A DNA stretch of 64,000 bases from Naegleria gruberi (GCA_000004985.1 GG738910.1); one strand, 5' to 3'; positions 134-28,852 are shown, counted from the stretch's first letter. Notes: generated by a model from the letters alone, not told the origin. Made by a program: numbers and translations.

Positions 134-922
134 ATGAAACAAGAGTATCAACAAGTATTTAATCCTAGGAATGCATCTTCTAATAATAATAAATATAATA
201 CTAATAATAATAATAACAAAATGTCATTCATTGATGAAACTAATAATGTAACATTAAAAGTTAAAGTGAATCAACGAAATAATAATATGCATATTAAACA
301 ATCAAGATTGAGAAAACCATTACAAAATGATAAATTTCTATTAAATTATTTTGAATTTGATAAACAACAACATTCAAATGATTTAACTGTTTACAAAATT
401 GTTAATATTACAAATAGTAGTACATCATCAGCTCCACCATCAATAATTCCTAATGTTATTCAACAGTATCATCAAGGCTTGACTGCAATATCACCATCAT
501 CATTGGAATCTAATGATTTCATTTCTAATAATTATAGTAATTGTAAAATTAGTAAGAATCATGGTAGAAGAAGATTATCAGTTGATAGTATTGTTACAAC
601 TGAGAAAGTTAAAGTTAAATCACCACTCTCTCCTCAAATTGTAAATTATTCTAATAATAATGAATCTAATTCAAGCAATGCTACCACCACTAATAGTAGT
701 ACTAGTACTAGTTGTAGTAGTAATGATTGTAATATAACTGATAGTAATGATAATTATTATTGGGATTTACTTCTTTCAGAATTACAACAGGAAGAAACCA
801 AAGGCTTGGAATCATCATCCTCACATGATTCACTTTCTACCACAACAACATCACCAACAACATCAACAAGTGAAGTAGACGCGAACAACGTACCATGTGA
901 TTGTCTTGCTCAAATATTTTGA
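134..922 (+). CDS. Fam1 member a: small S/T/N-rich protein with N-terminal motif MSFIDETNNVT-KVKVNQRN-IKQSRLRKPLQNDKFLLNYFEFDKQQ-SNDLTVYKI and mid motif RRRLSVDSIVTTEKVKV. C-terminal motif divergent (PCDCLAQIF).
   Basis: Uninterrupted ATG ORF. The N-terminal ~60 aa are near-identical to 5 other ORFs in the window (8190, 17516, 19195, 22828, 24214). The shared mid motif G-RKP-ID-I-TTEKV is present. Confidence 0.55.
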   Translation: MKQEYQQVFNPRNASSNNNKYNTNNNNNKMSFIDETNNVTLKVKVNQRNNNMHIKQSRLRKPLQNDKFLLNYFEFDKQQHSNDLTVYKIVNITNSSTSSAPPSIIPNVIQQYHQGLTAISPSSLESNDFISNNYSNCKISKNHGRRRLSVDSIVTTEKVKVKSPLSPQIVNYSNNNESNSSNATTTNSSTSTSCSSNDCNITDSNDNYYWDLLLSELQQEETKGLESSSSHDSLSTTTTSPTTSTSEVDANNVPCDCLAQIF

Positions 923-1020
923 GTGTTATCCATGTACAAGTTCTGAAGTTTACATATTTGGTATAAAGTGATACCACTAACTAATAAAATTTCAAGCTTA
1001 AAAAAAAATAACGCACTTTC

Positions 1021-1760
1021 CCATTCTTCTGCATAAAATTGAATGGCCAAGAATAGCACCCAATCCGTTCTTCTAAAACAATCAGGTTACCTAAACACGA
1101 TGATCATCGTCAACTGCCACAAACAATCAACAACCACACCATCATCCCCATTATCAACATTATCAACAACACACAACAAACAACTATCATCAACATGATG
1201 GATAATACATACATCTAATAATTATTATTAATTTAATAATAATAATTAAAATCAACAAAAGACTAATGATCAACAGCCATTGTGCATGCATGCATTACAA
1301 CAACATCATGTTTAACAAACACATTTACATTTGATGTTATCACCACATACACATCTTGAATGTAAATGTACACAACTGAATGTAAATGTACACAACAACA
1401 ATATAATCGCATTAACAACCACACTACTATTAACATTTGAAATGATTATGATTAATTAATTTTACATCATGATGATGAACACATTTACATCTAGATGTTA
1501 TCCACATCATGTGATGCATGTGTAAAAAAACATAATACATCCTTTTTACAATCTAACATTTAATGCATGTAAAATGTGATGTGAATAATGTTGTACATGA
1601 TGTTGCCGTTATTGAAGTCATTAATGATGAGTNNNNNNNNNNNNNNNNNNNNNNNNNNNNNNNNNNNNNNNNNNNNNNNNNNTAAAGATAAATTTCTTAA
1701 TTTGTCCGTTCTCATTATTATCCTTTTACTGCTGTGATGTATTAGTTGAGTTGTAGTAAC
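1021..1760. repeat. Intergenic block rich in short inverted repeats (ACATTTACAT / ATGTAAATGT; 20-bp direct repeat TGAATGTAAATGTACACAAC x2 at ~1358-1397) and CATGCATG-type palindromes. Contains a 50-N gap.
   Basis: Direct reading of sequence: 'aacacatttacatttgatgttatcac' at ~1318 and 'aacacatttacatctagatgttatccac' at ~1478, plus 'gtgcatgcatgcatt'. No coding potential. Confidence 0.4.
1633..1682. other. Assembly gap (50 N)
   Basis: Run of n. Confidence 0.99.
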
Positions 1761-1789
1761 AGTCACACACTACTGATGGATTGAAAAAA

Positions 1790-2665
1790 ATGTTACCAAC
1801 ATTTAATTCCTCAAATCTTCACACTAGAAAGAGAGGAGATTTATCATCTTCATCGTCATCGTCATCTTCATCAAATCAACAACAACAACAACATTTTAAA
1901 TCAAACAAGTCTAATTGTTTGAGTAAAATAGTTTATTTAATAATAGGCTTGTTATTATTTATTATAGTATTATATTATTTATTATTTAATAGTAATAATA
2001 ATATTGATACTAATAGTAATAATATTGATACTAGTACTACAACAATTACAACTACTACCAATAATAATGATTTAACAATAACAACAAATAATGATGATAA
2101 ATTAGTATCAAATAATAATAATAATAATAATAATATTGAAAATGTACTAGTGGATAATAACATTAAATCATCATCATCATCATCCAATAATAATGAACCA
2201 CAACAACATCCACAACCAAATCCACAAGAACAAACACAACATGAACAAACACAACAATCGGATCAACAAGTACAAACTAATGAACCACAAGCACAACCAT
2301 CTCCTCAACCACAAGCACCTCAACAAGTACCACCAACACAACAACAAGAAGTAGAACATTCAGTAGTTGAAGAAGAAAAGAAAGAAACTCCATCAAATAT
2401 TCCACCACCACTATTAAAACGTGAAAAGACAGAAAAGGAGAAACAACAAGATTTAATATTTGAAGAAATTGCTAAATTATTAACTAATCCAGATCAAACA
2501 AGTGAAGGATCCTATGGATGGTATAGAAAACAATTAGATACCAATAATAGATTAGGTAATACTTTATTTGAAGATCCTATAATGACTAAATTAGGATTTC
2601 AAGATACAGTTACAACAAGTGAAGTATTATTTCACTATTTTAGAACATTTAATACAACACAAGAA
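1790..2665 (+). CDS. 5' part of a gene truncated by the 5.3-kb gap. Poly-Ser/Gln N-terminus, one TM segment (IVYLIIGLLLFIIVLYYLLF), Q/P-rich linker, then a globular region (GSYGWYRKQLDTNNRLGNTLFEDPIMTKLGFQDTV...).
   Basis: ORF from the first ATG (1790; the track start at 1781 is TTG) runs into the N-gap at 2666. Composition is typical of dictyostelid coding sequence. Function unknown. Confidence 0.45.
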
Positions 2666-5600
2666 NNNNNNNNNNNNNNNNNNNNNNNNNNNNNNNNNNN
2701 NNNNNNNNNNNNNNNNNNNNNNNNNNNNNNNNNNNNNNNNNNNNNNNNNNNNNNNNNNNNNNNNNNNNNNNNNNNNNNNNNNNNNNNNNNNNNNNNNNNN
2801 NNNNNNNNNNNNNNNNNNNNNNNNNNNNNNNNNNNNNNNNNNNNNNNNNNNNNNNNNNNNNNNNNNNNNNNNNNNNNNNNNNNNNNNNNNNNNNNNNNNN
2901 NNNNNNNNNNNNNNNNNNNNNNNNNNNNNNNNNNNNNNNNNNNNNNNNNNNNNNNNNNNNNNNNNNNNNNNNNNNNNNNNNNNNNNNNNNNNNNNNNNNN
3001 NNNNNNNNNNNNNNNNNNNNNNNNNNNNNNNNNNNNNNNNNNNNNNNNNNNNNNNNNNNNNNNNNNNNNNNNNNNNNNNNNNNNNNNNNNNNNNNNNNNN
3101 NNNNNNNNNNNNNNNNNNNNNNNNNNNNNNNNNNNNNNNNNNNNNNNNNNNNNNNNNNNNNNNNNNNNNNNNNNNNNNNNNNNNNNNNNNNNNNNNNNNN
3201 NNNNNNNNNNNNNNNNNNNNNNNNNNNNNNNNNNNNNNNNNNNNNNNNNNNNNNNNNNNNNNNNNNNNNNNNNNNNNNNNNNNNNNNNNNNNNNNNNNNN
3301 NNNNNNNNNNNNNNNNNNNNNNNNNNNNNNNNNNNNNNNNNNNNNNNNNNNNNNNNNNNNNNNNNNNNNNNNNNNNNNNNNNNNNNNNNNNNNNNNNNNN
3401 NNNNNNNNNNNNNNNNNNNNNNNNNNNNNNNNNNNNNNNNNNNNNNNNNNNNNNNNNNNNNNNNNNNNNNNNNNNNNNNNNNNNNNNNNNNNNNNNNNNN
3501 NNNNNNNNNNNNNNNNNNNNNNNNNNNNNNNNNNNNNNNNNNNNNNNNNNNNNNNNNNNNNNNNNNNNNNNNNNNNNNNNNNNNNNNNNNNNNNNNNNNN
3601 NNNNNNNNNNNNNNNNNNNNNNNNNNNNNNNNNNNNNNNNNNNNNNNNNNNNNNNNNNNNNNNNNNNNNNNNNNNNNNNNNNNNNNNNNNNNNNNNNNNN
3701 NNNNNNNNNNNNNNNNNNNNNNNNNNNNNNNNNNNNNNNNNNNNNNNNNNNNNNNNNNNNNNNNNNNNNNNNNNNNNNNNNNNNNNNNNNNNNNNNNNNN
3801 NNNNNNNNNNNNNNNNNNNNNNNNNNNNNNNNNNNNNNNNNNNNNNNNNNNNNNNNNNNNNNNNNNNNNNNNNNNNNNNNNNNNNNNNNNNNNNNNNNNN
3901 NNNNNNNNNNNNNNNNNNNNNNNNNNNNNNNNNNNNNNNNNNNNNNNNNNNNNNNNNNNNNNNNNNNNNNNNNNNNNNNNNNNNNNNNNNNNNNNNNNNN
4001 NNNNNNNNNNNNNNNNNNNNNNNNNNNNNNNNNNNNNNNNNNNNNNNNNNNNNNNNNNNNNNNNNNNNNNNNNNNNNNNNNNNNNNNNNNNNNNNNNNNN
4101 NNNNNNNNNNNNNNNNNNNNNNNNNNNNNNNNNNNNNNNNNNNNNNNNNNNNNNNNNNNNNNNNNNNNNNNNNNNNNNNNNNNNNNNNNNNNNNNNNNNN
4201 NNNNNNNNNNNNNNNNNNNNNNNNNNNNNNNNNNNNNNNNNNNNNNNNNNNNNNNNNNNNNNNNNNNNNNNNNNNNNNNNNNNNNNNNNNNNNNNNNNNN
4301 NNNNNNNNNNNNNNNNNNNNNNNNNNNNNNNNNNNNNNNNNNNNNNNNNNNNNNNNNNNNNNNNNNNNNNNNNNNNNNNNNNNNNNNNNNNNNNNNNNNN
4401 NNNNNNNNNNNNNNNNNNNNNNNNNNNNNNNNNNNNNNNNNNNNNNNNNNNNNNNNNNNNNNNNNNNNNNNNNNNNNNNNNNNNNNNNNNNNNNNNNNNN
4501 NNNNNNNNNNNNNNNNNNNNNNNNNNNNNNNNNNNNNNNNNNNNNNNNNNNNNNNNNNNNNNNNNNNNNNNNNNNNNNNNNNNNNNNNNNNNNNNNNNNN
4601 NNNNNNNNNNNNNNNNNNNNNNNNNNNNNNNNNNNNNNNNNNNNNNNNNNNNNNNNNNNNNNNNNNNNNNNNNNNNNNNNNNNNNNNNNNNNNNNNNNNN
4701 NNNNNNNNNNNNNNNNNNNNNNNNNNNNNNNNNNNNNNNNNNNNNNNNNNNNNNNNNNNNNNNNNNNNNNNNNNNNNNNNNNNNNNNNNNNNNNNNNNNN
4801 NNNNNNNNNNNNNNNNNNNNNNNNNNNNNNNNNNNNNNNNNNNNNNNNNNNNNNNNNNNNNNNNNNNNNNNNNNNNNNNNNNNNNNNNNNNNNNNNNNNN
4901 NNNNNNNNNNNNNNNNNNNNNNNNNNNNNNNNNNNNNNNNNNNNNNNNNNNNNNNNNNNNNNNNNNNNNNNNNNNNNNNNNNNNNNNNNNNNNNNNNNNN
5001 NNNNNNNNNNNNNNNNNNNNNNNNNNNNNNNNNNNNNNNNNNNNNNNNNNNNNNNNNNNNNNNNNNNNNNNNNNNNNNNNNNNNNNNNNNNNNNNNNNNN
5101 NNNNNNNNNNNNNNNNNNNNNNNNNNNNNNNNNNNNNNNNNNNNNNNNNNNNNNNNNNNNNNNNNNNNNNNNNNNNNNNNNNNNNNNNNNNNNNNNNNNN
5201 NNNNNNNNNNNNNNNNNNNNNNNNNNNNNNNNNNNNNNNNNNNNNNNNNNNNNNNNNNNNNNNNNNNNNNNNNNNNNNNNNNNNNNNNNNNNNNNNNNNN
5301 NNNNNNNNNNNNNNNNNNNNNNNNNNNNNNNNNNNNNNNNNNNNNNNNNNNNNNNNNNNNNNNNNNNNNNNNNNNNNNNNNNNNNNNNNNNNNNNNNNNN
5401 NNNNNNNNNNNNNNNNNNNNNNNNNNNNNNNNNNNNNNNNNNNNNNNNNNNNNNNNNNNNNNNNNNNNNNNNNNNNNNNNNNNNNNNNNNNNNNNNNNNN
5501 NNNNNNNNNNNNNNNNNNNNNNNNNNNNNNNNNNNNNNNNNNNNNNNNNNNNNNNNNNNNNNNNNNNNNNNNNNNNNNNNNNNNNNNNNNNNNNNNNNNN

Positions 5601-7981
5601 NNNNNNNNNNNNNNNNNNNNNNNNNNNNNNNNNNNNNNNNNNNNNNNNNNNNNNNNNNNNNNNNNNNNNNNNNNNNNNNNNNNNNNNNNNNNNNNNNNNN
5701 NNNNNNNNNNNNNNNNNNNNNNNNNNNNNNNNNNNNNNNNNNNNNNNNNNNNNNNNNNNNNNNNNNNNNNNNNNNNNNNNNNNNNNNNNNNNNNNNNNNN
5801 NNNNNNNNNNNNNNNNNNNNNNNNNNNNNNNNNNNNNNNNNNNNNNNNNNNNNNNNNNNNNNNNNNNNNNNNNNNNNNNNNNNNNNNNNNNNNNNNNNNN
5901 NNNNNNNNNNNNNNNNNNNNNNNNNNNNNNNNNNNNNNNNNNNNNNNNNNNNNNNNNNNNNNNNNNNNNNNNNNNNNNNNNNNNNNNNNNNNNNNNNNNN
6001 NNNNNNNNNNNNNNNNNNNNNNNNNNNNNNNNNNNNNNNNNNNNNNNNNNNNNNNNNNNNNNNNNNNNNNNNNNNNNNNNNNNNNNNNNNNNNNNNNNNN
6101 NNNNNNNNNNNNNNNNNNNNNNNNNNNNNNNNNNNNNNNNNNNNNNNNNNNNNNNNNNNNNNNNNNNNNNNNNNNNNNNNNNNNNNNNNNNNNNNNNNNN
6201 NNNNNNNNNNNNNNNNNNNNNNNNNNNNNNNNNNNNNNNNNNNNNNNNNNNNNNNNNNNNNNNNNNNNNNNNNNNNNNNNNNNNNNNNNNNNNNNNNNNN
6301 NNNNNNNNNNNNNNNNNNNNNNNNNNNNNNNNNNNNNNNNNNNNNNNNNNNNNNNNNNNNNNNNNNNNNNNNNNNNNNNNNNNNNNNNNNNNNNNNNNNN
6401 NNNNNNNNNNNNNNNNNNNNNNNNNNNNNNNNNNNNNNNNNNNNNNNNNNNNNNNNNNNNNNNNNNNNNNNNNNNNNNNNNNNNNNNNNNNNNNNNNNNN
6501 NNNNNNNNNNNNNNNNNNNNNNNNNNNNNNNNNNNNNNNNNNNNNNNNNNNNNNNNNNNNNNNNNNNNNNNNNNNNNNNNNNNNNNNNNNNNNNNNNNNN
6601 NNNNNNNNNNNNNNNNNNNNNNNNNNNNNNNNNNNNNNNNNNNNNNNNNNNNNNNNNNNNNNNNNNNNNNNNNNNNNNNNNNNNNNNNNNNNNNNNNNNN
6701 NNNNNNNNNNNNNNNNNNNNNNNNNNNNNNNNNNNNNNNNNNNNNNNNNNNNNNNNNNNNNNNNNNNNNNNNNNNNNNNNNNNNNNNNNNNNNNNNNNNN
6801 NNNNNNNNNNNNNNNNNNNNNNNNNNNNNNNNNNNNNNNNNNNNNNNNNNNNNNNNNNNNNNNNNNNNNNNNNNNNNNNNNNNNNNNNNNNNNNNNNNNN
6901 NNNNNNNNNNNNNNNNNNNNNNNNNNNNNNNNNNNNNNNNNNNNNNNNNNNNNNNNNNNNNNNNNNNNNNNNNNNNNNNNNNNNNNNNNNNNNNNNNNNN
7001 NNNNNNNNNNNNNNNNNNNNNNNNNNNNNNNNNNNNNNNNNNNNNNNNNNNNNNNNNNNNNNNNNNNNNNNNNNNNNNNNNNNNNNNNNNNNNNNNNNNN
7101 NNNNNNNNNNNNNNNNNNNNNNNNNNNNNNNNNNNNNNNNNNNNNNNNNNNNNNNNNNNNNNNNNNNNNNNNNNNNNNNNNNNNNNNNNNNNNNNNNNNN
7201 NNNNNNNNNNNNNNNNNNNNNNNNNNNNNNNNNNNNNNNNNNNNNNNNNNNNNNNNNNNNNNNNNNNNNNNNNNNNNNNNNNNNNNNNNNNNNNNNNNNN
7301 NNNNNNNNNNNNNNNNNNNNNNNNNNNNNNNNNNNNNNNNNNNNNNNNNNNNNNNNNNNNNNNNNNNNNNNNNNNNNNNNNNNNNNNNNNNNNNNNNNNN
7401 NNNNNNNNNNNNNNNNNNNNNNNNNNNNNNNNNNNNNNNNNNNNNNNNNNNNNNNNNNNNNNNNNNNNNNNNNNNNNNNNNNNNNNNNNNNNNNNNNNNN
7501 NNNNNNNNNNNNNNNNNNNNNNNNNNNNNNNNNNNNNNNNNNNNNNNNNNNNNNNNNNNNNNNNNNNNNNNNNNNNNNNNNNNNNNNNNNNNNNNNNNNN
7601 NNNNNNNNNNNNNNNNNNNNNNNNNNNNNNNNNNNNNNNNNNNNNNNNNNNNNNNNNNNNNNNNNNNNNNNNNNNNNNNNNNNNNNNNNNNNNNNNNNNN
7701 NNNNNNNNNNNNNNNNNNNNNNNNNNNNNNNNNNNNNNNNNNNNNNNNNNNNNNNNNNNNNNNNNNNNNNNNNNNNNNNNNNNNNNNNNNNNNNNNNNNN
7801 NNNNNNNNNNNNNNNNNNNNNNNNNNNNNNNNNNNNNNNNNNNNNNNNNNNNNNNNNNNNNNNNNNNNNNNNNNNNNNNNNNNNNNNNNNNNNNNNNNNN
7901 NNNNNNNNNNNNNNNNNNNNNNNNNNNNNNNNNNNNNNNNNNNNNNNNNNNNNNNNNNNNNNNNNNNNNNNNNNNNNNNNN
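2666..7981. other. Assembly gap (5316 N). The three long 'ORFs' spanning it (1781..8020, 2619..8921, complement 2635..8016) are artefacts.
   Basis: Run of n. Probably collapsed repeat or family copies, given the flanking family genes. Confidence 0.99.
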
Positions 7982-8189: not shown

Positions 8190-8921
8190 ATGAATAAATC
8201 AGAATCTCAAGATTCAAAACATCAATTAACTAGTAATACTAACAATAATAATAAGAAAAGAAAGAATGATCACATTCAAACTAGTAATTCTAATAATAAT
8301 TCTAATAGTAATGTTAATAATAATTCTAATAGTAATGGTAATAATTCTAATAATTCTAATTCTAATTCTAATTATAATAATGGTAATAATACTAATAATG
8401 GTAACATGTCATTTATAGATGAAACTAATAATGTAACATTAAAAGCTAAAGTGAATCAACGAAATAATAATTTAAATATTAAACAATCAAGATTGAGAAA
8501 ACCATTACAAAATGATAAATTATTAAAAAATTATTTTGAATTTGATAAACAACAACAATCAAATGATTTAATTAAATTTAAATTAATTGATACTACTATT
8601 AATAATATAAATGGTAATATTAAAGATAATTATGTAAATACATTTAATAATAGAATTGGGTGTAGAAAACCATCTATTGATCAAATTATTACAAGTGAAA
8701 AAGTTACATTTAATAATATTATAAATAATAATTTAATTAATAATATTGTAGTATATGATAATAATGATCAACAAGATAATTATTCATTACCTAAAGAAGA
8801 AGAAGAAGCAGATAATTTATTAAATATTGAAGATGAATCAATTTTCAATAATATTGAATTAAATAATGAAAGTGATGGTAATAGTTTTATCAGTTCATTT
8901 TCATTTCTATTTAAAGAATAA
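8190..8921 (+). CDS. Fam1 member b: MSFIDETNNVTLKAKVNQRNNNLNIKQSRLRKPLQNDKLLKNYFEFDKQQQSNDL..., IGCRKPSIDQIITSEKVTF..., ending EEEEADNLLNIEDESIFNNIELNNESDGNSFISSFSFLFKE.
   Basis: The frame is open from the gap. The first ATG after the gap is at 8190 (MNKSES...) and the MSFIDE Met is at 8406. All three family motifs are present, so the 5' end is uncertain. Confidence 0.5.
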   Translation: MNKSESQDSKHQLTSNTNNNNKKRKNDHIQTSNSNNNSNSNVNNNSNSNGNNSNNSNSNSNYNNGNNTNNGNMSFIDETNNVTLKAKVNQRNNNLNIKQSRLRKPLQNDKLLKNYFEFDKQQQSNDLIKFKLIDTTINNINGNIKDNYVNTFNNRIGCRKPSIDQIITSEKVTFNNIINNNLINNIVVYDNNDQQDNYSLPKEEEEADNLLNIEDESIFNNIELNNESDGNSFISSFSFLFKE

Positions 8922-9442: not shown

Positions 9443-10429
9443 ATGATGAATAATAACTCGACTTCAAGTTGGATAAATGAATTTTCCTCTACTGCTCATA
9501 CCTGTTCAGTTGATGTTTTTTGTGGAATGGTCTCTCCATCATTCTCCAACAACAAGCCTTCAATAACAATGAACAATACAATTACAGATGATGAATGTAT
9601 TGAACCAAGTCTAAATCTTGATGTTATTGATTTTATTCAGAGTTGGGAATTATTAAAGATGATGACAACTCCAAAGCAACAATTATTTAATAGAAAGCCT
9701 TTTGACAAGCCTTCTATTCACCAAATGTCAGCCTTCAATAATATCCAATGTACTAAAATCACCTCAACTGTTATGAATTCTATTGATGCTGATATTAAGT
9801 GCACTCCATCACACTCATCCACATGCCATATTGTATTACCATCACCAACTGAGACATTATCTCTACTGACACTTAACACCTCACCTCCTCATCAGCAACC
9901 CTTCAATGCTAATACTATTGAAAATAGCCTGACCAATACCATTTCTAATACTGACATTGCTGATAAGGTACTTTTAACCAATTTAGAATCATATCAATTT
10001 CCCAAGAATCCTTATCATGAACATTATGATCAATCACCACCACCATCAAATGATATATCCATGATGCCACTCCAACAACAAACTAATGTAAACAATACAT
10101 TCAACAAGAAGGATGATAATCGTATTCTAAAGAGAAAGAGAAAGATTTCTAATGTATCTTCATTCGAATCAGAAAAGAGAAAAACCTCAATTTCATCCAC
10201 CACACCACCTACAACATGTTCAAGTAATTCATCCTCAATTGGTAATAATAGTTCATTATCAACAAATGTGCACTCACAACAATCATTCAATAATTGTATT
10301 ATAATTTCAAATCCAAAACATTTGAAAAGAAGAAGAAAATATCAAAAGAGAAAGAATTCAGCCAATACAAATCCTGCTCAAACTCAAATGGAATTTCACT
10401 TTCCAGTTTGGACTTTTCATTTAGAATAA
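9443..10429 (+). CDS. Fam2 member a (328 aa): N-terminal MMNNNSTSSWINE...CIEPSLNLDVIDFIQSWELLKMMTTPKQQLFNRKP, S/T/P-rich middle with KRKRKISNVSSFESEKRKTS, C-terminal basic block NPKHLKRRRKYQKRKNSANTNPAQTQMEFHFPVWTFHLE.
   Basis: ATG ORF. Paralogous to 11002, 11657, 15288, 16323 and complement 26260. No recognisable Pfam-type domain. The basic block is NLS-like. Confidence 0.6.
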   Translation: MMNNNSTSSWINEFSSTAHTCSVDVFCGMVSPSFSNNKPSITMNNTITDDECIEPSLNLDVIDFIQSWELLKMMTTPKQQLFNRKPFDKPSIHQMSAFNNIQCTKITSTVMNSIDADIKCTPSHSSTCHIVLPSPTETLSLLTLNTSPPHQQPFNANTIENSLTNTISNTDIADKVLLTNLESYQFPKNPYHEHYDQSPPPSNDISMMPLQQQTNVNNTFNKKDDNRILKRKRKISNVSSFESEKRKTSISSTTPPTTCSSNSSSIGNNSSLSTNVHSQQSFNNCIIISNPKHLKRRRKYQKRKNSANTNPAQTQMEFHFPVWTFHLE

Positions 10430-19194: not shown

Positions 19195-19758
19195 TTAATT
19201 ATATAGAAACGAAATTGAACTGAGAAAGCTTTCACAATCATCAAATTCTACTGCTTCTTCTTCTTTTAAAGTATTATCACTGCATGCACTACTGCTGCTT
19301 CCACTAGTACTGCTTCCACCACTACTGCTGTTGATTGAGTTGATTGTTAGTGATGATGATGAATATTCAATATTACTAGATGCATGTTGATTCAAATTAT
19401 TATTATTCATAGTTTTGCATTTAACCTTCTGACATGTAATAATTGTATCAACTGTTGATGTTTCTATTGGACATGTTGTATTATTTTCAATACTACTAGA
19501 AGTATTAGAATTATCAATGATGGTGGTTGATGCATTTGGTGGATTAATAATTTTGTAAATAGTTAAATCACTTTCTGTTAATTGTTGCTTATCAAATTCA
19601 AAATAATTTTTCAGTAAATTATCATTTTGTAATGGTTTTCTCAATCTCGATTGTTTAATTTTCAATTCCTTATTTCTCTTTTTCACTTTTGCTTTCTTTG
19701 TAACATTGCTAGTTTCATCAATGAATGACATGTTGTTGGAATTCTGGTTCTTCTTCAT
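19195..19758 (-). CDS. Fam1 member d (187 aa), tandem duplicate of c
   Basis: ATG ORF. The N-terminal 75 aa and the C-terminal 25 aa are identical to c. The middle S/T-rich region differs slightly. Confidence 0.6.
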   Translation of the reverse strand: MKKNQNSNNMSFIDETSNVTKKAKVKKRNKELKIKQSRLRKPLQNDNLLKNYFEFDKQQLTESDLTIYKIINPPNASTTIIDNSNTSSSIENNTTCPIETSTVDTIITCQKVKCKTMNNNNLNQHASSNIEYSSSSLTINSINSSSGGSSTSGSSSSACSDNTLKEEEAVEFDDCESFLSSISFLYN

Positions 19759-20796: not shown

Positions 20797-21369
20797 TTAA
20801 TTTAATAATTCTTGGAAGGTTATTGCAGTTCTATGCTTACGTTCACTTGTTGTTGTAGCAATATTGGTCGTTGTTATAGTGGTGGTCTTCCTAGGAATAA
20901 TATTATTGAATAATGGTGATGATAATGGTTGAATAATAATATTATCTTCACTGGTACATGTACTTTTGTGCTCCGAAGGTCTTCTCACTCTAATATAAGC
21001 ATCATCATTATGATTATTAGCTAAAGATGAGCAAGTAGTAATAGGCTCTGTTGAATCAATGGTCATTTGAATGGCTCCAACTTGTAATATTTTCCTCTTT
21101 GGTCGCCCACGAACCTTTGGTGCTGCTTTGTTAATACCACCAATACTACTAGTATTATTAATATTTGAATTAGACTTCTTCTGTTGTTGTTGACCCACAC
21201 GACCGAATGTAACAACTGAGAATTTTACATAATCTACCTTTTCAATTATTCTATTTGGAGGTGGATGTGGAGGTGGTGGTGATCTAATGGTTTGACTTAA
21301 TTGAGGTTCTGATGGCTTGGATTTTTGTTGGTGATTCAATGTTAAGGAATAATTTTCACAACTTTTCAT
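20797..21369 (-). CDS. Fam3-related protein (190 aa) with a Pro-rich stretch (PPPPHPPPN), an AT-hook-like motif (KVRGRPKRK) and the C-terminal ...SERKHRTAITFQELLN.
   Basis: ATG ORF. The C-terminal motif matches Fam3 (KKRQRRTSITIRELLN). The GRP core within a basic context is read as an AT-hook. Confidence 0.45.
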   Translation of the reverse strand: MKSCENYSLTLNHQQKSKPSEPQLSQTIRSPPPPHPPPNRIIEKVDYVKFSVVTFGRVGQQQQKKSNSNINNTSSIGGINKAAPKVRGRPKRKILQVGAIQMTIDSTEPITTCSSLANNHNDDAYIRVRRPSEHKSTCTSEDNIIIQPLSSPLFNNIIPRKTTTITTTNIATTTSERKHRTAITFQELLN

Positions 21370-22827: not shown

Positions 22828-23883
22828 ATGAAGAATAATACTAATAGAGTTACTTATAATAGTAATAATAATACTACTACTACTACTACTAATACTAATA
22901 CTTGTACTAATAATAATAATCATGGGATTAGACGGAGTGATTCAAGCAGTAGTAATAGCAACATGTCATTCATTGATGAAACTAGTAATGTTACAATGAA
23001 AGTTAAAGTAAAAAAGAGAAATCATCAATTGAATATTAAACAATCGAGATTGAGAAAACCATTACAAAATGATAATTTACTGAAAAATTACTTTGAATTT
23101 GATAAAAAGCAACAATCAAACGATTTGACTGTTTACAAAATTATTAATACTACTACTACAAATGCTACTAATTCTACCACCAACAACACCAACACCACCA
23201 GTTGTAGTTCTAATAATATTAAAGAGGAAGAAGAAGAAAAGGAAAATTTCATTACAATGAATAACACTATTAATACTATTAATAATAATAATAATGGAAT
23301 TGATAAGAAGATGCATCGATTTGGATGTAGAAAACCAACAATTGATAAAGTTGTTACAACAGAGAAAGTGCAAGTGAGCAAGAATTACAAATCAACAAGT
23401 TTGAATAGTATTGCAACAACAAGTAATACTATTACAAATAATTATTTAAATAATCACAACAATTATATTGGAAATAATCCATTGAAAAGTAATGAAAGAG
23501 TTGAAGAATATCAACAACAATTAGAATATAATAATCGAGTTTATAATGAATTTACTATTAATCATTACAATGATGTAAATAATATGAATCAATTATTTAT
23601 TAATAGTAATAATAATAATACTATTTCATATCCTCTCACTACTACCACAACTACAACTGCTGCTAATTTACCAATTCAACAAGTTTACAATCAACAATTT
23701 AATAATCAATTTAATAATCAATTATCATATTTATGGAATTCTCGAGTCAATTATTCAATTAATAATAGTGATAGTAATAGTAATAATAGTCAAACTAATA
23801 ATTCAAAAGAGGAAGAAGAAGAATTTGATGATTGTAAAAGTTTTCTCAGTTCCATTTCATTTCTATATGATTATCAAAAATAA
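22828..23883 (+). CDS. Fam1 member e (351 aa, long form): N/T-rich leader, then MSFIDETSNVTMKVKVKKRNHQLNIKQSRLRKPLQNDNLLKNYFEFDKKQQSNDLTVYKI, ...FGCRKPTIDKVVTTEKVQV..., ...SKEEEEEFDDCKSFLSSISFLYDYQK.
   Basis: ATG ORF with all three family motifs. The leader may be 5'UTR if translation starts at the MSFIDE Met (~22963). Confidence 0.55.
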   Translation: MKNNTNRVTYNSNNNTTTTTTNTNTCTNNNNHGIRRSDSSSSNSNMSFIDETSNVTMKVKVKKRNHQLNIKQSRLRKPLQNDNLLKNYFEFDKKQQSNDLTVYKIINTTTTNATNSTTNNTNTTSCSSNNIKEEEEEKENFITMNNTINTINNNNNGIDKKMHRFGCRKPTIDKVVTTEKVQVSKNYKSTSLNSIATTSNTITNNYLNNHNNYIGNNPLKSNERVEEYQQQLEYNNRVYNEFTINHYNDVNNMNQLFINSNNNNTISYPLTTTTTTTAANLPIQQVYNQQFNNQFNNQLSYLWNSRVNYSINNSDSNSNNSQTNNSKEEEEEFDDCKSFLSSISFLYDYQK

Positions 23884-24213: not shown

Positions 24214-24673
24214 ATGAAGAAGAATATCAACTCATCACAACATTTTACTGATGAAACTAAAAAGATTGTCAATAATTGTAGGAAGAGGGATGAGAATTTG
24301 AAAAGTCATCGACAACCCAGATTTAAAAAATCATTGAGAAATTCCAACTTTTTAAAGAATTATTTCGAGTTTGAAAGTGGTGATCATTCGAGAGATCAAT
24401 TAACAGTATACAAAATGAGGAATCAAAGTAATAGGCACCAATCAATTGAACATTGTAAGAAAAAAGATTGTTAATATTTCCAAAAATAGTAATTCCATTC
24501 CTGAAGCCTCCAATAATGACTCTTCTGCTTCAATACGAGACTTGCCAATGAATGTTTTCAATTATGAAAATAATATAATGATGATATTCAGCAATTTATT
24601 TAATTCTTCGTCACAGTTACCAAATGTGGAAGACGATGATTGCCAAAGTTTTCTAAGCTCTTTATCATTCTAA
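24214..24673 (+). pseudogene. Divergent Fam1 member f with a reading-frame break near 24445-24475: N-terminal ...FTDETKKIVNN...RQPRFKKSLRNSNFLKNYFEFESGDHSRDQLTVYKM, and a C-terminal part in another frame ending ...EDDDCQSFLSSLSF.
   Basis: Two adjacent track ORFs (24214..24474, 24446..24673) in different frames carry the N- and C-terminal family motifs. I could not find a GT..AG intron with compatible phase (GTAAGA at 24455 with AG at 24488 gives the wrong phase). Confidence 0.4.
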
Positions 24674-24809
24674 TATTGTATGTATAAATTTTATAAAAAA
24701 ACAATTTATTCTAAATGAAAACTCCATATTGGAAAGTGAAATTCCATTTGAGTTTGTGCTGGATTTGTATTGGTTGACTTCTTTTTCTTTTGATATTTTC
24801 GTCTTTTTT

Positions 24810-25370
24810 TCAAATGTTTTGGATTTGANNNNNNNNNNNNNNNNNNNNNNNNNNNNNNNNNNNNNNNNNNNNNNNNNNAAATGATAAATTCATTGGATAT
24901 ATTTCTTTAAATATTGGTAAATGTCTAATACTTTGATAATTTTGGGGCCATGCGTCCAAGCCTAATGAATGTTTCGTCTTGTTAAATCTTCTCTTTAATG
25001 TTGACAAGTGACAGTCCAATATTTTGGCAGCTTGTATTTGAGAGAGGTGTAAAACTCGAATCATTTCTTCATTGGAGATTGCTCTTGCTCTCTTGTATGA
25101 ATTAACAGGAGCTGCACTGAAAAAAGTTCCATATTTAGTTTCTCGTTTCTTCCAATTAAATAGAGAAACAGCTAATGGGCTATTATTATAATTTTCAATA
25201 TTATTATTATGAATGTTATTATTGGTGTTATTGGTAATGGATGTGGTAGTGGAAGATTTGGCAAAAGATATCAAAGTTATTGAAGATAGAGAGCTAGAGT
25301 TGCTATTCGAAAGTTTGCTCGAGTTTAGTTTAGTTGAAGGCTTGGAAATTTTAGATGAGTTTCTATTCAT
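24810..25370 (-). CDS. Small RWP-RK-like protein a (186 aa; Fam4). S/T/N-rich N-terminus. C-terminal ...AISNEEMIRVLHLSQIQAAKILDCHLSTLKRRFNKTKHSLGLDAWPQNYQSIRHLPIF... A 50-N gap at 24829-24878 lies inside the 3' end.
   Basis: ATG ORF. Spacing of L-x-AAK-L-x5-TLKR-x9-G-x3-WP fits the RWP-RK domain (PF02042) consensus, though it reads AWP not RWP. Paralog at 27707..28216. Confidence 0.5.
   Translation of the reverse strand: MNRNSSKISKPSTKLNSSKLSNSNSSSLSSITLISFAKSSTTTSITNNTNNNIHNNNIENYNNSPLAVSLFNWKKRETKYGTFFSAAPVNSYKRARAISNEEMIRVLHLSQIQAAKILDCHLSTLKRRFNKTKHSLGLDAWPQNYQSIRHLPIFKEIYPMNLSFXXXXXXXXXXXXXXXXXQIQNI
24829..24878. other. Assembly gap (50 N)
   Basis: Run of n. Confidence 0.99.
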
Positions 25371-25819
25371 GTTGTTTAGTTGTTTTTTTAAATTGTGTTC
25401 AATCTATTATAAATGGAATTAAGAGTCATGTAATTAGTTCATCAAATCTCTTGTCATACATTGTCAACTGACATTTGGAAGTAAAGTTAGCTATTTCAGA
25501 AACTCGTAGTACAACAAGATTGTAAGAGATCGATTTTTCGTAATGCCAGATTCAAACTGTTTGGTCCATTAAAATTACTTTTTTTGAAGCAGAGACAGTT
25601 TATGGAATTACTCAAAACATTTTGCTCGCTAAAATTTTCCAATACGAGTGAATCATTTCAAAATTGCCTTATTAATACAAAATTGAAAAGTTTAAGAGAA
25701 TATCAATTCAAGTTGATTGTGTCAACAATCTCATTTGTCCGCGTGTAATCGAATCTTTGTTGAATGGAGAGGTTTAGGATGTCTGTTAATTCGAAACAAA
25801 TTTAGTATTCCAATAAAAT

Positions 25820-26260
25820 TTATTCTAAACAATGTGGTGCAAAGTTCTTTAGAAATGTAGAANNNNNNNNNNNNNNNNNNNNNNNNNNNNNNNNNNNNNN
25901 NNNNNNNNNNNNACTGTTATTATCGATTGAAGAAACATCATTACTTGTAGATGATGTAGTGGATGAAATTGAGGTTTTTCTCTTCTTTAATGGTTGAGTG
26001 TTCGATAGCCGTGATGTGTATGAACTATTGTATTGAAAACTTTCTATATTATTAGTTAATAGAGTTGAATTATATTGATTACTACCACTAGCTGCACTCT
26101 CCTCCATCTGGTTGATGCTCATCTCTTGATTAAATATATTATTAATATAATTCATTGTAATATCAGCAGTATTAGTAATTATCTTTAAACATTCCCAACT
26201 TTTCATAAAATCATTAACATCAAGTTGTAATTTAATAGTATTATCATCACACTGATTCAT
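25820..26260 (-). CDS. Fam2 member f (minus strand; ATG at 26260, since the track start at 26332 is TTG): MNQCDDNTIKLQLDVNDFMKSWECLKIITN...KKRKTSISSTTSS... C-terminal region interrupted by the gap at 25862-25912.
   Basis: Retains a degenerate LDV-DFM-SWE-LK motif and a KKRKTS block. Divergent from copies a-e. Confidence 0.4.
   Translation of the reverse strand: MNQCDDNTIKLQLDVNDFMKSWECLKIITNTADITMNYINNIFNQEMSINQMEESAASGSNQYNSTLLTNNIESFQYNSSYTSRLSNTQPLKKRKTSISSTTSSTSNDVSSIDNNSXXXXXXXXXXXXXXXXXSTFLKNFAPHCLE
25862..25912. other. Assembly gap (~51 N)
   Basis: Run of n. Confidence 0.99.
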
Positions 26261-26908
26261 GGTTGATTGATTGTTTTTTTTATAAGTGAGATTTCGTATA
26301 TTCTGTAACTTGATTGGAACTATTTGATACAACTCTGATACAGATTTGTCAAGTTTGGAATCAAATGTGGAATGAATATTAAGGAGTTGCGCTTATGAAC
26401 ACTACAGGAGTGCATTGTTATTGCTCATATCATTGTTATGAATATTTAGTGCGTGCTACAATTATTTATCTCTTCATTGTAAGATGGTGATTATATCACT
26501 TATCATTAATAATATTACGTTCACATTTTAAAAAGTAAATTGGTGATTCTCTAAAGGAAACTAATATATTATTCGATAAAAGAGTCACTGAAGAGAGAAA
26601 GGAGGTTTCACGGAATTATTGAATTACAGTAACTGTAGATTCTGAATACTTTTCCTTACTTACCATTAACTGTGATTAAGGATCTTTAAACCACTCTCTA
26701 TATTATTTACAATCCCAAACTTTATAAAATAAATCACCAAAACATTAAAGATGAATTGTTCATAATGGTTCGAATAGGTTGAACAACACTCAATGTGCAG
26801 TTGTTCCTAGTAGTTCCGAAATCAATGCTCATCATCTCTTTGTTTTCTTTTATCATTATTAGTGAAACTAACTATTAATAATTGTTGTACAGTTTATTAA
26901 GGTTAATG

Positions 26909-27415
26909 TTAATCATCATAATTTAATAATTCTCTTATAGTAATTGATGTTCTTCGTTGTCTCTTTTTATCAATTGGTGATGATTGAATTGAAGTTGGTG
27001 TTGAAGGCTGTTGGTGCTGATCATTAGATTCTTCAATTCTATCTTGATGAAGGCTTGCCACCGAATCATCACCTCCGCCACTACTGACCATTGTATTATT
27101 ATTACCATATTGATCATTTTGCTGATGCAGTGCCATTCTCTTATTCTTTCTAATTCTTGTTGAGTCATCTTTCTGAAGCGTTTTGAATTGTGTTGGTTTG
27201 CATGGAAATGAAATGACTTGGAAAGGCTTTGAATTATTTGAAAAGTATTCTGTATATTTACTTGTCATTACTTTACAATTATCATCAACAACATCAGCAT
27301 GATCATTGTTAGATCTTCTTCTAGTTGATGATGTTGGATTGGAAGAACAAAAATCGACAACAGTTAATTTGAGTGCTTTTGCCTTTCTTCTATTCGATTG
27401 TTTGTTTGGATTCAT
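26909..27415 (-). CDS. Fam3 member b (168 aa), paralog of 13171..13677, ending IDKKRQRRTSITIRELLNYDD
   Basis: ATG ORF. ~85% aa identity with copy a across the full length. Confidence 0.55.
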   Translation of the reverse strand: MNPNKQSNRRKAKALKLTVVDFCSSNPTSSTRRRSNNDHADVVDDNCKVMTSKYTEYFSNNSKPFQVISFPCKPTQFKTLQKDDSTRIRKNKRMALHQQNDQYGNNNTMVSSGGGDDSVASLHQDRIEESNDQHQQPSTPTSIQSSPIDKKRQRRTSITIRELLNYDD

Positions 27416-27706
27416 TGGTTATAATATTCTAGTTGTGTGTTGTCTTTGGGTGATACGTGTTGTTTCGTTTCGTTTTGTGAAATTGTTACTGATAAAGATT
27501 GCAGATTTCATCGAAATATTTTGCTCTTTTTTCCCAAAACGGCAATTTTTCAAAAAAGAACCCTTGTTGATATATATAAATCTCCACTAAAAGTATAAGC
27601 AAAACAGCGTATGTGTTGATAATGTTGAATAGATAATTTATTCCCCTCATGGGGTAGTTTACTTCAATTTGATAAGAACTGCAATTATTATTCAGAATAT
27701 TGTAAA

Positions 27707-28216
27707 CTATTTGGAATCTTTATTTAAAATAAATGATAAATTCATTGGATATATTTCTTTAAATATTGGTAAATGTCTAATACTTTGATAATTTTGAGGC
27801 CATGCGTCCAAGCCTAATGAATGTTTCGTCTTGTTAAATCTTCTCTTTAATGTTGACAAGTGACAGTCCAATATTTTGGCAGCTTGTATTTGAGAGAGGT
27901 GTAAAACTCGAATCATTTCTTCATTGGAGATTGCTCTCTTGTATGAATTAACAGGAGCTGCACTGAAAAAAGTTCCATATTTAGTTTCACGTTTCTTCCA
28001 ATTAAATAGAGAAACAGCTAATGGGCTATTATTATAATTTTCAATATTCGTATTGTTATTATTTTTATGGGTATTATTGGGAATGGATGTGGTGGTGGAA
28101 GATTTGGCAAAAGATATCAAAGTTATTGAAGATAGCGAGCTAGAGCTTCTATTCGAAAGTTTGTTGGAGTTTAGTTTAGTTGAAGGCTTGGAAATTTTAG
28201 ATGGTTTTCTATTCAT
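27707..28216 (-). CDS. Small RWP-RK-like protein b (169 aa; Fam4), intact copy
   Basis: ATG ORF. C-terminal 110 aa essentially identical to 24810..25370. The ~170-bp 5' flank (28300-28470) is also duplicated at 25440-25610. Confidence 0.55.
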   Translation of the reverse strand: MNRKPSKISKPSTKLNSNKLSNRSSSSLSSITLISFAKSSTTTSIPNNTHKNNNNTNIENYNNSPLAVSLFNWKKRETKYGTFFSAAPVNSYKRAISNEEMIRVLHLSQIQAAKILDCHLSTLKRRFNKTKHSLGLDAWPQNYQSIRHLPIFKEIYPMNLSFILNKDSK

Positions 28217-28852
28217 GTTGTTTAGCTATTTTTTTAAATTGTGTTCAGTACATTTGCAGCATCTCTTATAAATGTAATGAAAGTGGCTTTCAATAGTTCA
28301 TCAAATCTCTTGTCATACATTGTCAAGTGACATTTGGAAATATGGTTAGCTATTTCAGAAACTCGTAGTACAACAAGATTGTAAGAGATCAATTTTTTGG
28401 TAATGCCAGATTTAACTGTTTGGTTCATTACAATTACTATTTTTGAAGCAGACAAGTTTATGGAAAGAAATCACATAATTGCCTTATTAATACTAAATGA
28501 AGAAGAATATCAATGCATGTTGAATGTGTCAACAATCATTTGTCCGCGTATATTCGAATCTTTAGGACCGTCATTAAGGATGATTGAATATTCAATGTAT
28601 GCTGTTGCCAAAACTTAAAAATTTTACAAGTCGTCAACAACCTTACTCAGTAGAAACAAGTTCAAATCTGAAAGAAATCGATTGTCCAGGATACAATTTC
28701 AAATAGCTATCCTCTACAGAAATATTCAACAAACAAGCAAGAACTTCCTATATTTATTCGAAACTGAAAGTCTTCTAAGGAAGATTTCATTGTAAAGTTT
28801 TAAGAGAGAATGACTTTGAATCTTCAATAATCTAAAGAAAACTTTGAACAAA

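What the first reader, a model, noticed from the sequence alone, without database searches (positions are those of the whole stretch)
134..28470. 28-kb block of four co-amplified, lineage-specific small-protein gene families
At least 17 genes, gene fragments or pseudogenes in this block belong to just four families with no recognisable catalytic domains. The copies are Fam1 x6 plus a fragment, Fam2 x6, Fam3 x3 and RWP-RK-like x2. The layout is roughly mirror-symmetric: + strand genes at 8-17 kb, then - strand copies at 17.5-21.4 kb, + strand copies at 22.8-24.7 kb, and a - strand Fam4/Fam2/Fam3/Fam4 set at 24.8-28.2 kb. The proteins are small (170-350 aa), basic, S/T/N-rich and carry NLS-like K/R blocks. 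One family is RWP-RK-like and one has an AT-hook. The block reads as a rapidly evolving cluster of putative nuclear or regulatory proteins, not housekeeping genes. In a draft genome such a cluster is easily mis-annotated or collapsed.
Basis: seen in the sequence. Interest (0 to 1): 0.7.

Follow-up and report, generated by a model that had tools for sequence, protein, structure and literature searches.

The report
Naegleria-specific orphan gene cluster, partly artefact
The block is a real cluster of repeatedly duplicated small genes found only in the amoeba Naegleria gruberi (not a slime mould), probably encoding disordered nuclear proteins. Its copy count is inflated by a fragmented, haplotype-split draft assembly, and nothing beyond that points to unusual biology.

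Summary
The window comes from a 243,952-bp Naegleria gruberi NEG-M scaffold, not from a dictyostelid. Four paralogous families are real (blastp E down to 1e-40). Several copies lie inside one gap-free contig, so the cluster is not an assembly illusion.

My counts:
- Fam1: 5 intact copies plus 1 frameshifted.
- Fam2: 5 loci. One is frameshifted and one is split by gaps.
- Fam3: 2 copies. The proposed third member shares only a 15-residue tail.
- Fam4: 2 copies. One sits on a 984-bp contig apparently mis-scaffolded inside a Fam2 gene.

Duplications are gene-sized and of very different ages (dS 0.03 to above 1; dN/dS 0.23-0.94). They are not co-amplified units and not a palindrome.

All families are restricted to N. 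gruberi and one environmental relative. Fam4 is a degenerate RWP-RK relative (AWPQNY motif; Pfam score below cut-off, linked through a paralogue that passes). The proteins are hydrophilic, S/T/N-rich and predicted mostly disordered, with NLS-like blocks. A nuclear or regulatory role is plausible but untested.

Near-identical twins of the block's genes lie on other scaffolds (second haplotype or recent duplication). The official annotation contains a 798-aa chimeric model. Interest is modest.

The parts
134..922 (+). Fam1a, intact 262-aa ORF
   Evidence: It is in the Fam1 blastp cluster. It forms the N-terminal part of the chimeric NCBI model EFC38149. A 97.7% twin, EFC38099, lies on a 261-kb scaffold.
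2666..7981 (.). 5,316-N scaffold gap. Five further 50-N gaps lie at 1633-1682, 11318-11367, 15302-15351, 24829-24878 and 25863-25912.
   Evidence: All six gaps lie inside the block, which is therefore made of 7 contigs.
8286..8921 (+). Fam1b. The ORF is open back to the gap edge at 7983, and the conserved MSFIDET module starts at 8409.
9443..10429 (+). Fam2a, intact 328 aa
   Evidence: Twin EFC38100 matches at 286/287 residues on a 261-kb scaffold. A 97% copy lies on a 13.4-kb contig.
10594..11317 (+). Contig end that duplicates 11368-11972. It carries the 5' part of a Fam2 ORF (10999-11316). Probably an unmerged overlap of two haplotypes, not a separate gene.
   Evidence: The segments are 100% identical over 123 nt and 97.5% over 478 nt, with a 119-nt indel. 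The alignment starts at the first base after the gap and ends at the last base before it. dS is 0.034.
11591..12640 (+). Fam2c, intact 349 aa (NCBI P0007)
13171..13677 (+). Fam3a, 168 aa (EFC38151, NAEGRDRAFT_74016)
   Evidence: Twin EFC38102 is 99.4% identical and lies on the 261-kb scaffold.
14519..15064 (+). Single-copy orphan ORF, 181 aa (EFC38152)
   Evidence: No paralogue in the window. A twin at 90% identity or more lies on the 8,928-bp contig. An orthologue with a different N-terminus is in L001.
15354..15937 (+). Fam2d, read in two frames (1-nt deletion near 15545). The N-terminus is cut by a gap. Either a pseudogene or a sequencing error.
   Evidence: Alignment to the intact 197-200-aa orthologue in L001 and to Fam2e.
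16323..16928 (+). Fam2e, intact short form, 201 aa
17516..18061 (-). Fam1c, 181 aa (EFC38201, NAEGRDRAFT_53198)
   Evidence: 100% match to the NCBI N. gruberi protein.
19195..19758 (-). Fam1d, 187 aa, a young tandem duplicate of Fam1c (dS 0.165)
   Evidence: A 97% twin, EFC35724, lies on the 8,928-bp contig.
20797..21369 (-). Single-copy basic protein, 190 aa (EFC38203), with the AT-hook core KVRGRPKRK. It is not a Fam3 member.
   Evidence: Only a 15-aa C-terminal motif is shared with Fam3. RGRP lies at residue 87. pI is 10.1.
22828..23883 (+). Fam1e, 351 aa long form
   Evidence: A partial twin at 96% identity lies at the end of the 8,928-bp contig.
24214..24673 (+). Fam1f, a full-length copy split into two frames at an A-run near 24460. 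Either frameshifted or a sequencing error.
   Evidence: The N-terminal module is in ORF 24214-24474. The C-terminal DDDCQSFLSSLSF motif is in ORF 24446-24673.
24709..26332 (-). Fam2f, one gene whose 5' part (26332-25913) and 3' end (24828-24709) are separated by gap + 984-bp contig + gap
   Evidence: The orthologous environmental contig L002 is continuous, with only about 66 nt unaccounted for. P0010 gives the intact 162-aa product.
24879..25862 (-). 984-bp contig carrying Fam4a (24879-25370, its C-terminus cut by the contig end). Its placement inside Fam2f is probably a scaffolding artefact.
   Evidence: It is flanked by 50-N gaps. It is 85.8% identical in DNA and 93% in protein to the Fam4b region, with dS 0.088. 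See for the continuity of the host gene.
26909..27415 (-). Fam3b, 168 aa (EFC38204)
   Evidence: 84% aa identity to Fam3a. dN/dS is 0.45..
27707..28216 (-). Fam4b, 169 aa (EFC38205, NAEGRDRAFT_74024), with a C-terminal degenerate RWP-RK/HTH domain at residues 96-141
   Evidence: Pfam RWP-RK scores 17.7 bits against a cut-off of 29.3. It matches paralogue P0006 at E=1e-23, and P0006 passes at 29.6 bits. AF2 predicts three helices at residues 98-130 with pLDDT 70-80.

Best explanation
The block lies at a scaffold break in the heterozygous diploid Naegleria gruberi NEG-M. Individual small genes of Naegleria-specific families have been duplicated here again and again, in tandem or inverted, one gene at a time and over a long period. 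The copies have then diverged under relaxed purifying selection.

The products are hydrophilic, S/T/N-rich, largely disordered proteins. They keep only short conserved modules:
- Fam1: a 62-residue basic N-terminal module and an acidic-hydrophobic C-terminal tail.
- Fam2: an amphipathic DFMQSWELL helix, a KRKRK block and a basic, aromatic C-terminal tail.
- Fam3: conserved N- and C-terminal basic motifs.
- Fam4: a degenerate RWP-RK helix-turn-helix domain.

The most likely role is nuclear DNA or chromatin binding, or transcription-regulatory adaptor proteins. This is inferred, not shown.

Because the two haplotypes differ by a few percent here, the Sanger-era assembler broke the region into seven contigs. 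It left one contig overlap unmerged, probably dropped a small contig into the wrong gap, and placed the second haplotype on other scaffolds. The apparent copy number is therefore inflated.
For: **Organism and lineage restriction**
- Searches found only N. gruberi proteins plus two ENA metagenome proteins.
- The Fam3 profile hit only itself among 1.84 billion representatives.
- Two JGI metagenome scans found nothing.

**Real paralogy**
-.
- Seven family members lie in the single gap-free contig 15352-24828.

**Gene-by-gene duplication at different ages**
- The self-blast matches are gene-sized, at 69-100% identity (97.5-100% only for the artefactual contig overlap).
- dS ranges from 0.03 to 1.25 and dN/dS from 0.23 to 0.94.
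- The Fam1 N-terminal module has dN 0.09-0.17, against 0.4-1.0 for the rest of the protein.

**The genes are functional**
- Intact orthologues exist in an environmental relative: P0009, P0010 and P0020.

**Protein properties**
- pI and S/T/N content.
- no signal peptide or TM segment (maximum KD19 below 0.9).
- AF2 predicts disorder apart from an HTH in Fam4 and one helix in Fam2.
- the RWP-RK link.

**Assembly effects**
- the contig overlap.
- the misplaced contig.
- twins at 96-99.7% identity on the 261-kb, 13.4-kb and 8.9-kb scaffolds.
- the chimeric model.
Against: - There are no expression or localisation data. None of the locus tags appears in the searchable literature.
- Fam4 fails the Pfam cut-off and lacks the R and the RK of the RWP-RK motif.
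- The fold search gave only non-significant HTH hits (E above 0.6).
- No upstream motif is shared across families, so co-regulation is unsupported.
- Two copies are frameshifted, and one recent pair (Fam2a/Fam2c) has dN/dS 0.90. Some copies may be decaying.
- Twins versus haplotypes: three versions of Fam2a exist (window, 99.7% and 97%). That is one more than a simple diploid predicts.
- The haplotype reading was not tested with reads.
Confidence: 0.6

Rival explanations
1. A largely non-functional, decaying array. The ORFs are young orphan or pseudogenic sequences drifting neutrally, and they have no cellular role.
For: - Two frameshifted copies.
- dN/dS is 0.90 for Fam2a/Fam2c and 0.7-0.8 for some Fam1 pairs.
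- The variable linkers have about 30% aa identity.
- There is no Pfam domain and no literature or expression record.
Against: - Most pairs have dN/dS 0.23-0.5.
- Terminal modules are strongly conserved. For example, the Fam2 C-terminal 40 residues are nearly invariant even in the distant paralogue P0011, and the Fam1 N-terminal module has dN 0.09-0.17.
- Intact orthologues exist in an environmental relative.
Confidence: 0.15
2. The repeats are mainly assembly artefacts: collapsed or chimeric duplications and haplotype redundancy. The true locus has one copy per family.
For: - Six gaps in 26 kb.
- One clear contig-overlap duplicate.
- One probably misplaced contig.
- Twin copies on other scaffolds.
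Against: - Fam2d, Fam2e, Fam1c, Fam1d, Fam1e and Fam1f all lie within one uninterrupted contig (15352-24828).
- Those copies differ by 8-55% in protein sequence, far beyond allelic or error-level divergence.
- Fam2a and Fam2c differ by 18% within neighbouring contigs.
Confidence: 0.05
3. A mating-type-like or sex-determining regulatory locus. It would carry small MID-like RWP-RK proteins plus fast-evolving partners, kept as two diverged haplotypes in a heterozygous diploid.
For: - Fam4 is a 169-aa protein with a C-terminal RWP-RK-like domain. This is the architecture of Chlamydomonas MID (from my own knowledge).
- The region shows haplotype-level divergence large enough to split the assembly.
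Against: - The twins carry the same genes at 96-99.7% identity. That is allelic variation, not idiomorphs with different gene content.
- Both Fam4 copies appear to be on the same haplotype scaffold.
- Mating has never been observed in Naegleria.
- There is no expression evidence.
- The RWP-RK motif is degenerate.
Confidence: 0.04
4. Cargo of a mobile element or an endogenised virus, with the families being viral or TE accessory genes.
For: - The genes are orphan and AT-rich, and sit in a poorly assembled region.
- A 5.3-kb gap could hide an element core.
- A relative shows a different arrangement, with a 54.2-54.7 kb-like sequence joined to a 14.65 kb-like sequence.
Against: - No transposase, integrase, RT or capsid domain in any ORF.
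- No terminal direct or inverted repeats beyond gene segments.
- GC content (27-32%) is a little below the flank (31-37%), which is not a strong compositional break.
- Fam2 and Fam4 have conserved paralogues at ordinary loci elsewhere.
Confidence: 0.04

Closest known systems
RWP-RK transcription factor family (Pfam PF02042; plant NLP/RKD, Chlamydomonas MID/NIT2; reported in Naegleria by PMC8296547)
   Same: - The Fam4 C-terminus aligns to the RWP-RK model over residues 96-141.
- It keeps the AAK...STLKRR...GL..WP core.
- A three-helix HTH is predicted.
- It is clearly homologous (E=1e-23) to the N. gruberi paralogue P0006, which passes the Pfam cut-off.
   Different: - The score of 17.7 bits is below the 29.3-bit cut-off.
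- The motif is GLDAWPQNY rather than RWPxRK.
- There is a 4-residue insertion before the motif.
- The protein has no PB1 or GAF domain, and DNA binding is untested.
- Only 2 of the roughly 17 ORFs belong to this family.
Lineage-specific tandem arrays of orphan or taxonomically restricted genes in protist genomes
   Same: - Local gene-by-gene duplication.
- Elevated dN/dS.
- Low-complexity, disordered products.
- No homologues outside the genus.
- A tendency to break draft assemblies and gene models.
   Different: Here four unrelated families are interleaved in one 28-kb stretch. At least two of them (Fam2, Fam4) have slower-evolving 'founder' paralogues elsewhere in the genome (P0011, P0006). 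The function is unknown.
AT-hook (HMGA-type) DNA-binding motif
   Same: The 20797-21369 product contains KVRGRPKRK, an RGRP core flanked by basic residues.
   Different: There is a single copy of the motif in an otherwise orphan protein. Pfam reported no hit at E of 1 or below.
Acidic activation-domain helices (e.g. p53 TAD1 FSDLWKLL; resemblance recalled from memory only)
   Same: The only confidently helical segment of Fam2 is ..LDVIDFMQSWELLK.., an F-x3-W-x-L-L amphipathic acidic helix. Fam1 ends in EEEEEFDDCESFLSSISFLY.
   Different: There is no homology. It is a pattern-level resemblance that was not tested here.

Membership tests
RWP-RK (PF02042) | Pfam model score at or above the gathering cut-off (29.3 bits) | tested here: not met
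   Fam4b scores 17.7 bits, E=0.0035. The out-of-block paralogue P0006 scores 29.6 bits and just passes.
RWP-RK (PF02042) | Invariant R-W-P-x-R-K motif | tested here: not met
   Fam4a and Fam4b have A-W-P-Q-N-Y. P0006 has R-W-P-Q-Y-F. Only the W-P is retained.
RWP-RK (PF02042) | Significant sequence homology to a bona fide family member | tested here: met
   Fam4b against P0006: E=1e-23, 62% identity over the C-terminal 46%.
RWP-RK (PF02042) | Helix-turn-helix fold and sequence-specific DNA binding | tested here: inconclusive
   AF2 predicts three helices at residues 98-130 with pLDDT 70-80, but the overall pLDDT is 52. The top Foldseek PDB hits are all HTH DNA-binding domains, but E is 0.6 or above. 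DNA binding cannot be tested here.
AT-hook proteins | R-G-R-P core flanked by K/R | tested here: met
   AAPKVRGRPKRKIL at residue 87 of the 20797-21369 product. Pfam reported no hit, which is usual for so short a motif.
   Only 15 C-terminal residues align (E=0.002 pairwise). tblastn finds no other match. The Fam3 profile search returned a single representative.
Co-amplified / mirror-symmetric segmental duplication | Multi-gene duplicated units or long inverted arms with the same gene order | tested here: not met
   All self-matches are about 1.2 kb or less and gene-sized. The inverted repeats are 67-154-nt conserved coding segments. The order is Fam2 then Fam3 on the + strand but Fam3 then Fam2 on the - strand.
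Mating-type locus (idiomorphic) | Haplotypes with different gene content that determine compatibility | not testable with these tools
   The twin genes found are the same genes at 96-99.7% identity. The DNA of the twin scaffolds could not be retrieved.
Transposable element or viral insertion | Hallmark genes (transposase, RT, integrase, capsid) and terminal repeats | tested here: not met
   There are no such Pfam domains and no terminal repeats. The 5.3-kb gap remains unexamined.

The most novel reading that the evidence does not exclude
The block is a hypervariable, heterozygous regulatory locus. It would carry small MID-like RWP-RK proteins plus rapidly diverging disordered partners, maintained as diverged haplotypes. 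That would make it a candidate mating-type or self-recognition region in Naegleria, an organism with meiotic genes and population-genetic signs of sex but no known mating system.
Probability: 0.04. Interest if true: 0.85.

Novelty: new member of a known kind. Interest (0 to 1): 0.3.

Why it matters
Mainly as a curation result:
- It identifies the organism correctly.
- It shows that one NCBI/JGI model (EFC38149) is a four-gene chimera.
- It shows that one Fam2 'copy' is an unmerged contig overlap.
- It shows that a 984-bp contig is probably misplaced.
- It shows that the end of a 261-kb scaffold and two small contigs duplicate this block.

Biologically, the block defines three Naegleria-restricted families of disordered, probably nuclear proteins and a degenerate RWP-RK subfamily. 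These expanded locally from slower-evolving founder genes elsewhere. That is a tidy example of how orphan regulator-like families grow, but it is not a new kind of system.

If the haplotype divergence proved to reflect a compatibility locus it would matter much more. Nothing here demonstrates that.

Tried and rejected
- **Fam3 as a truncated RWP-RK (Fam4) derivative.** hhalign gives probability 2%. No downstream exon continues the domain after the Fam3 stop codon. Rejected.
- **Relationships between families.** Fam1 against Fam2 and Fam1 against Fam3 show none. Fam2 against Fam3 shows only a 15-column match at E=0.074.
- **Shared promoter motif across families.** No cross-family 8-mer stands out beyond A-rich words.
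- **Long palindrome or terminal repeats.** None found.
- **Sequence matches to solved structures for Fam1, Fam2 and Fam4.** None is significant.
- **Foldseek PDB search with the Fam4 model.** No hit at E of 0.001 or below. The afdb50 library was unavailable.
- **tRNA and Rfam scans of the window.** Nothing found.
- **Twin scaffolds and window genes via the look-up of encoding contigs.** This genome is not held.
- **JGI metagenome scans with the Fam2 and Fam1 profiles.** No relatives found.
- **Literature search for six locus tags.** No hits.
- **The N. gruberi genome paper.** Not held.
- **Pfam on all family representatives.** Nothing above cut-off.

Full report
**Source.** The 181-aa ORF at 17516-18061(-) is 100% identical to an NCBI 'predicted protein [Naegleria gruberi]' on a 243,952-bp scaffold. 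Five other block ORFs map exactly to NCBI accessions EFC38151, EFC38152, EFC38203, EFC38204 and EFC38205 of N. gruberi, TaxID 5762. Window GC is 27-37%. The right-hand 35 kb carries ordinary domain-bearing genes: protein kinase, SH3, RCC1, ankyrin/VWA/U-box, adenylate cyclase with PAS, NamZ-like, GDP-mannose dehydratase and DOCK-C2/RasGEF. The block at 0-28.5 kb has no Pfam domain above cut-off.

**The observation.** All-vs-all blastp of stop-to-stop ORFs, tblastn with family representatives and self-blastn confirm four families.
- Fam1: 134-922(+), 8286-8921(+), 17516-18061(-), 19195-19758(-) and 22828-23883(+). A sixth copy, 24214-24673(+), has its N-terminal module and its C-terminal DDDCQSFLSSLSF motif in different frames, switching at an A-run.
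- Fam2: 9443-10429, 11591-12640, 15354-15937 and 16323-16928, all on the + strand. The 15354-15937 copy has a 1-nt deletion relative to an intact environmental orthologue. A - strand gene is split into 26332-25913 and 24828-24709.
- Fam3: 13171-13677(+) and 26909-27415(-), 84% identical.
- Fam4: 24879-25370(-) and 27707-28216(-), 93% identical.
- Two genes are single-copy: 14519-15064, and the AT-hook protein 20797-21369. The latter shares only a 15-residue C-terminal motif with Fam3.

**Assembly effects.** All six N gaps of the window lie in the block.
- *Unmerged overlap.* The contig ending at 11317 and the contig starting at 11368 overlap. 10594-10716 equals 11368-11490 at 100%, and 10840-11317 matches 11495-11972 at 97.5%, with a 119-nt indel. 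The alignment starts at the first base of the second contig and ends at the last base of the first. This is the signature of an unmerged overlap, most simply of two haplotypes.
- *Misplaced contig.* An ENA metagenome contig from a close relative (L002, 934 bp) carries the orthologue of Fam2f as one continuous 162-aa gene. It matches 26258-25913 and 24828-24634, with only about 66 nt between them. In the window those points are separated by 50 N + a 984-bp contig carrying Fam4a + 50 N. The small contig is therefore probably mis-scaffolded. It may still be a true paralogue from nearby, since its dS to Fam4b is 0.088.
- *Chimeric gene model.* NCBI model EFC38149 (798 aa) fuses Fam1a, the unrelated 1781-2665 gene, the tail of Fam1b and Fam2a across two gaps.
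- *Second copy of the block.* The block is represented a second time in the assembly.
  - A 261,328-bp scaffold carries EFC38099 (97.7% to Fam1a), EFC38100 (286/287 to Fam2a) and EFC38102 (99.4% to Fam3a).
  - An 8,928-bp contig carries twins of the 14519 singleton (90% or more), Fam1d (97%) and the first 103 residues of Fam1e (96%).
  - A 13,371-bp contig has a 97% Fam2a copy.
  - The span 14.2-23.1 kb of the window equals the length of the 8.9-kb contig.
  - The accession order suggests that the end of the 261-kb scaffold is colinear with the start of this scaffold. That is an inference only.
  - Naegleria is described as a mainly heterozygous diploid (PMC9928731). A second haplotype is the simplest reading, but I could not fetch the twin DNA.

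**How the cluster arose.** Self-matches are gene-sized, at most about 1.2 kb, and 69-100% identical; the 97.5-100% matches are the contig overlap described above. dS between paralogues runs from 0.03-0.17 for the youngest pairs to above 1. Inverted matches are only conserved coding segments of 67-154 nt. Fam2 precedes Fam3 on the + strand, but Fam3 precedes Fam2 on the - strand. This is repeated single-gene duplication over a long time. It is neither co-amplification of a multi-gene unit nor a palindrome.

dN/dS is 0.23-0.94. In Fam1 the 62-codon N-terminal module is constrained (dN 0.09-0.17), while the linker is nearly unconstrained at about 30-48% aa identity. Intact orthologues in the environmental relative argue that the genes are functional: P0009 is 87% identical to Fam2d, P0010 is 84% to Fam2f, and P0020 is 97.6% to Fam4b.

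**Lineage restriction.** Word-seeded searches of 5.8 billion proteins returned only N. gruberi, plus two ENA proteins for Fam2. These searches covered Fam1, Fam4 and Fam2 (as a profile). A full HMMER search of 1.84 billion representatives with the Fam3 profile returned only Fam3 itself. Two JGI metagenome scans were empty. Fam2 and Fam4 are not confined to the block. P0011 (Fam2-like, 342-kb scaffold) and P0006 (RWP-RK, 337-kb scaffold) are paralogues elsewhere. Each also has an ENA counterpart grouped in the same 90%-identity cluster (P0018 and P0016). I read these as slower-evolving 'founder' genes, and that reading is an inference.

**What the proteins are.**
- They are hydrophilic (GRAVY -0.64 to -1.25), with no signal peptide or TM segment.
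- They are S/T/N-rich.
- Fam2, Fam3, Fam4 and the AT-hook protein are basic (pI 8.4-10.3). Fam1 is not (pI 4.8-8.7).
- AlphaFold2 on the small family alignments predicts disorder (mean pLDDT 49-52). The exceptions are a three-helix unit at Fam4 residues 98-130 and one amphipathic helix in Fam2, DFMQSWELL.
- Fam4 matches Pfam RWP-RK at 17.7 bits, below the 29.3-bit cut-off. Its motif is AWPQNY. It is nonetheless homologous at E=1e-23 to P0006, which passes at 29.6 bits with RWPQYF. RWP-RK factors are already reported in Naegleria (PMC8296547).
- Foldseek hits to the PDB were all HTH DNA-binding domains, but none was significant.
- No sequence match to solved structures was found, and no relation between families.
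- A nuclear or regulatory role is the best guess. It remains an inference from NLS-like K/R blocks, the HTH remnant, the AT-hook core and the activation-domain-like acidic helices.

**Rivals.**
- A wholly artefactual origin is excluded, because divergent copies lie inside one gap-free contig.
- A decaying or junk array is possible for some copies (frameshifts, dN/dS near 0.9) but not for the conserved modules.
- A mobile-element or viral origin has no hallmark support.
- A mating-type-like locus is an attractive speculation, given the small MID-like RWP-RK protein and the haplotype-split region. However, the twins carry the same genes at 96-99.7% identity, not idiomorphs.

**Verdict.** This is a real but ordinary kind of feature: a lineage-specific tandem expansion of orphan, regulator-like genes. 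It is useful for curation and of modest biological interest.

Noticed in passing
window 33438-33965 (-) and 34397-34981 (-): This is another tandem pair of paralogous orphan ORFs (175 and 194 aa, 69% nt identity) just outside the block. Neither has a Pfam domain.
   Followed up: partly
window 52137-53528 (+): This 463-aa ORF has both NamZ exo-beta-N-acetylmuramidase domains (Pfam E=1e-58 and 3e-28). It is a bacterial-type peptidoglycan-recycling enzyme with an N-terminal hydrophobic leader in a eukaryotic scaffold. It may be a lateral gene transfer.
   Followed up: no
L001 1-2617 against window 54042-54696, 13717-13748 and 14650-15966: In an ENA metagenome contig from a close relative, sequence 83% identical to the non-coding window segment 54189-54696 is joined directly to the orthologue of the 14519 singleton and Fam2d. 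The junction shares 32 nt with window 13748-13717 on the opposite strand. Either the gene order differs in the relative or the metagenome contig is chimeric.
   Followed up: partly
window 134-10429 (+): NCBI/JGI gene model EFC38149 (NAEGRDRAFT_53196, 798 aa) is a chimera. It joins Fam1a, the 1781-2665 gene, the Fam1b tail and Fam2a across the 50-N and 5.3-kb gaps.
   Followed up: yes
Fam2 proteins, e.g. window 16323-16928 residues 32-47: The only predicted helix in Fam2 carries the motif D-F-M-Q-S-W-E-L-L (F-x3-W-x-L-L). It resembles acidic activation-domain helices such as p53 TAD1 (recalled from memory). Fam1 ends in an acidic-hydrophobic tail, EEEEEFDDCESFLSSISFLY.
   Followed up: no
Fam1 genes, N-terminal 62 codons (e.g. 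17885-18038 against 22959-23112): In several pairs the conserved N-terminal module has a lower dS (0.19-0.36) than the rest of the gene (0.86-1.85), and reaches 93% nt identity. This could reflect gene conversion between copies, or misalignment of the low-complexity remainder.
   Followed up: partly
window 13171-13250 and Fam2 N-termini (e.g. 11800-11850): There is a weak shared motif, L-x-L-x-V-[IV]-D-F, between Fam2 (LNLDVIDFMQSW) and Fam3 (LKLTVVDFCSS). hhalign gives E=0.074 over 15 columns. Similar hydrophobic strings occur near the N-termini of Fam4 and the AT-hook protein.
   Followed up: no
window 28844-29560 (+): This is a 238-aa ORF (TTG start in the mechanical list) with a DYY/DDW repeat stretch and no Pfam hit. 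It lies immediately right of the block. Whether it is a gene is unknown.
   Followed up: no
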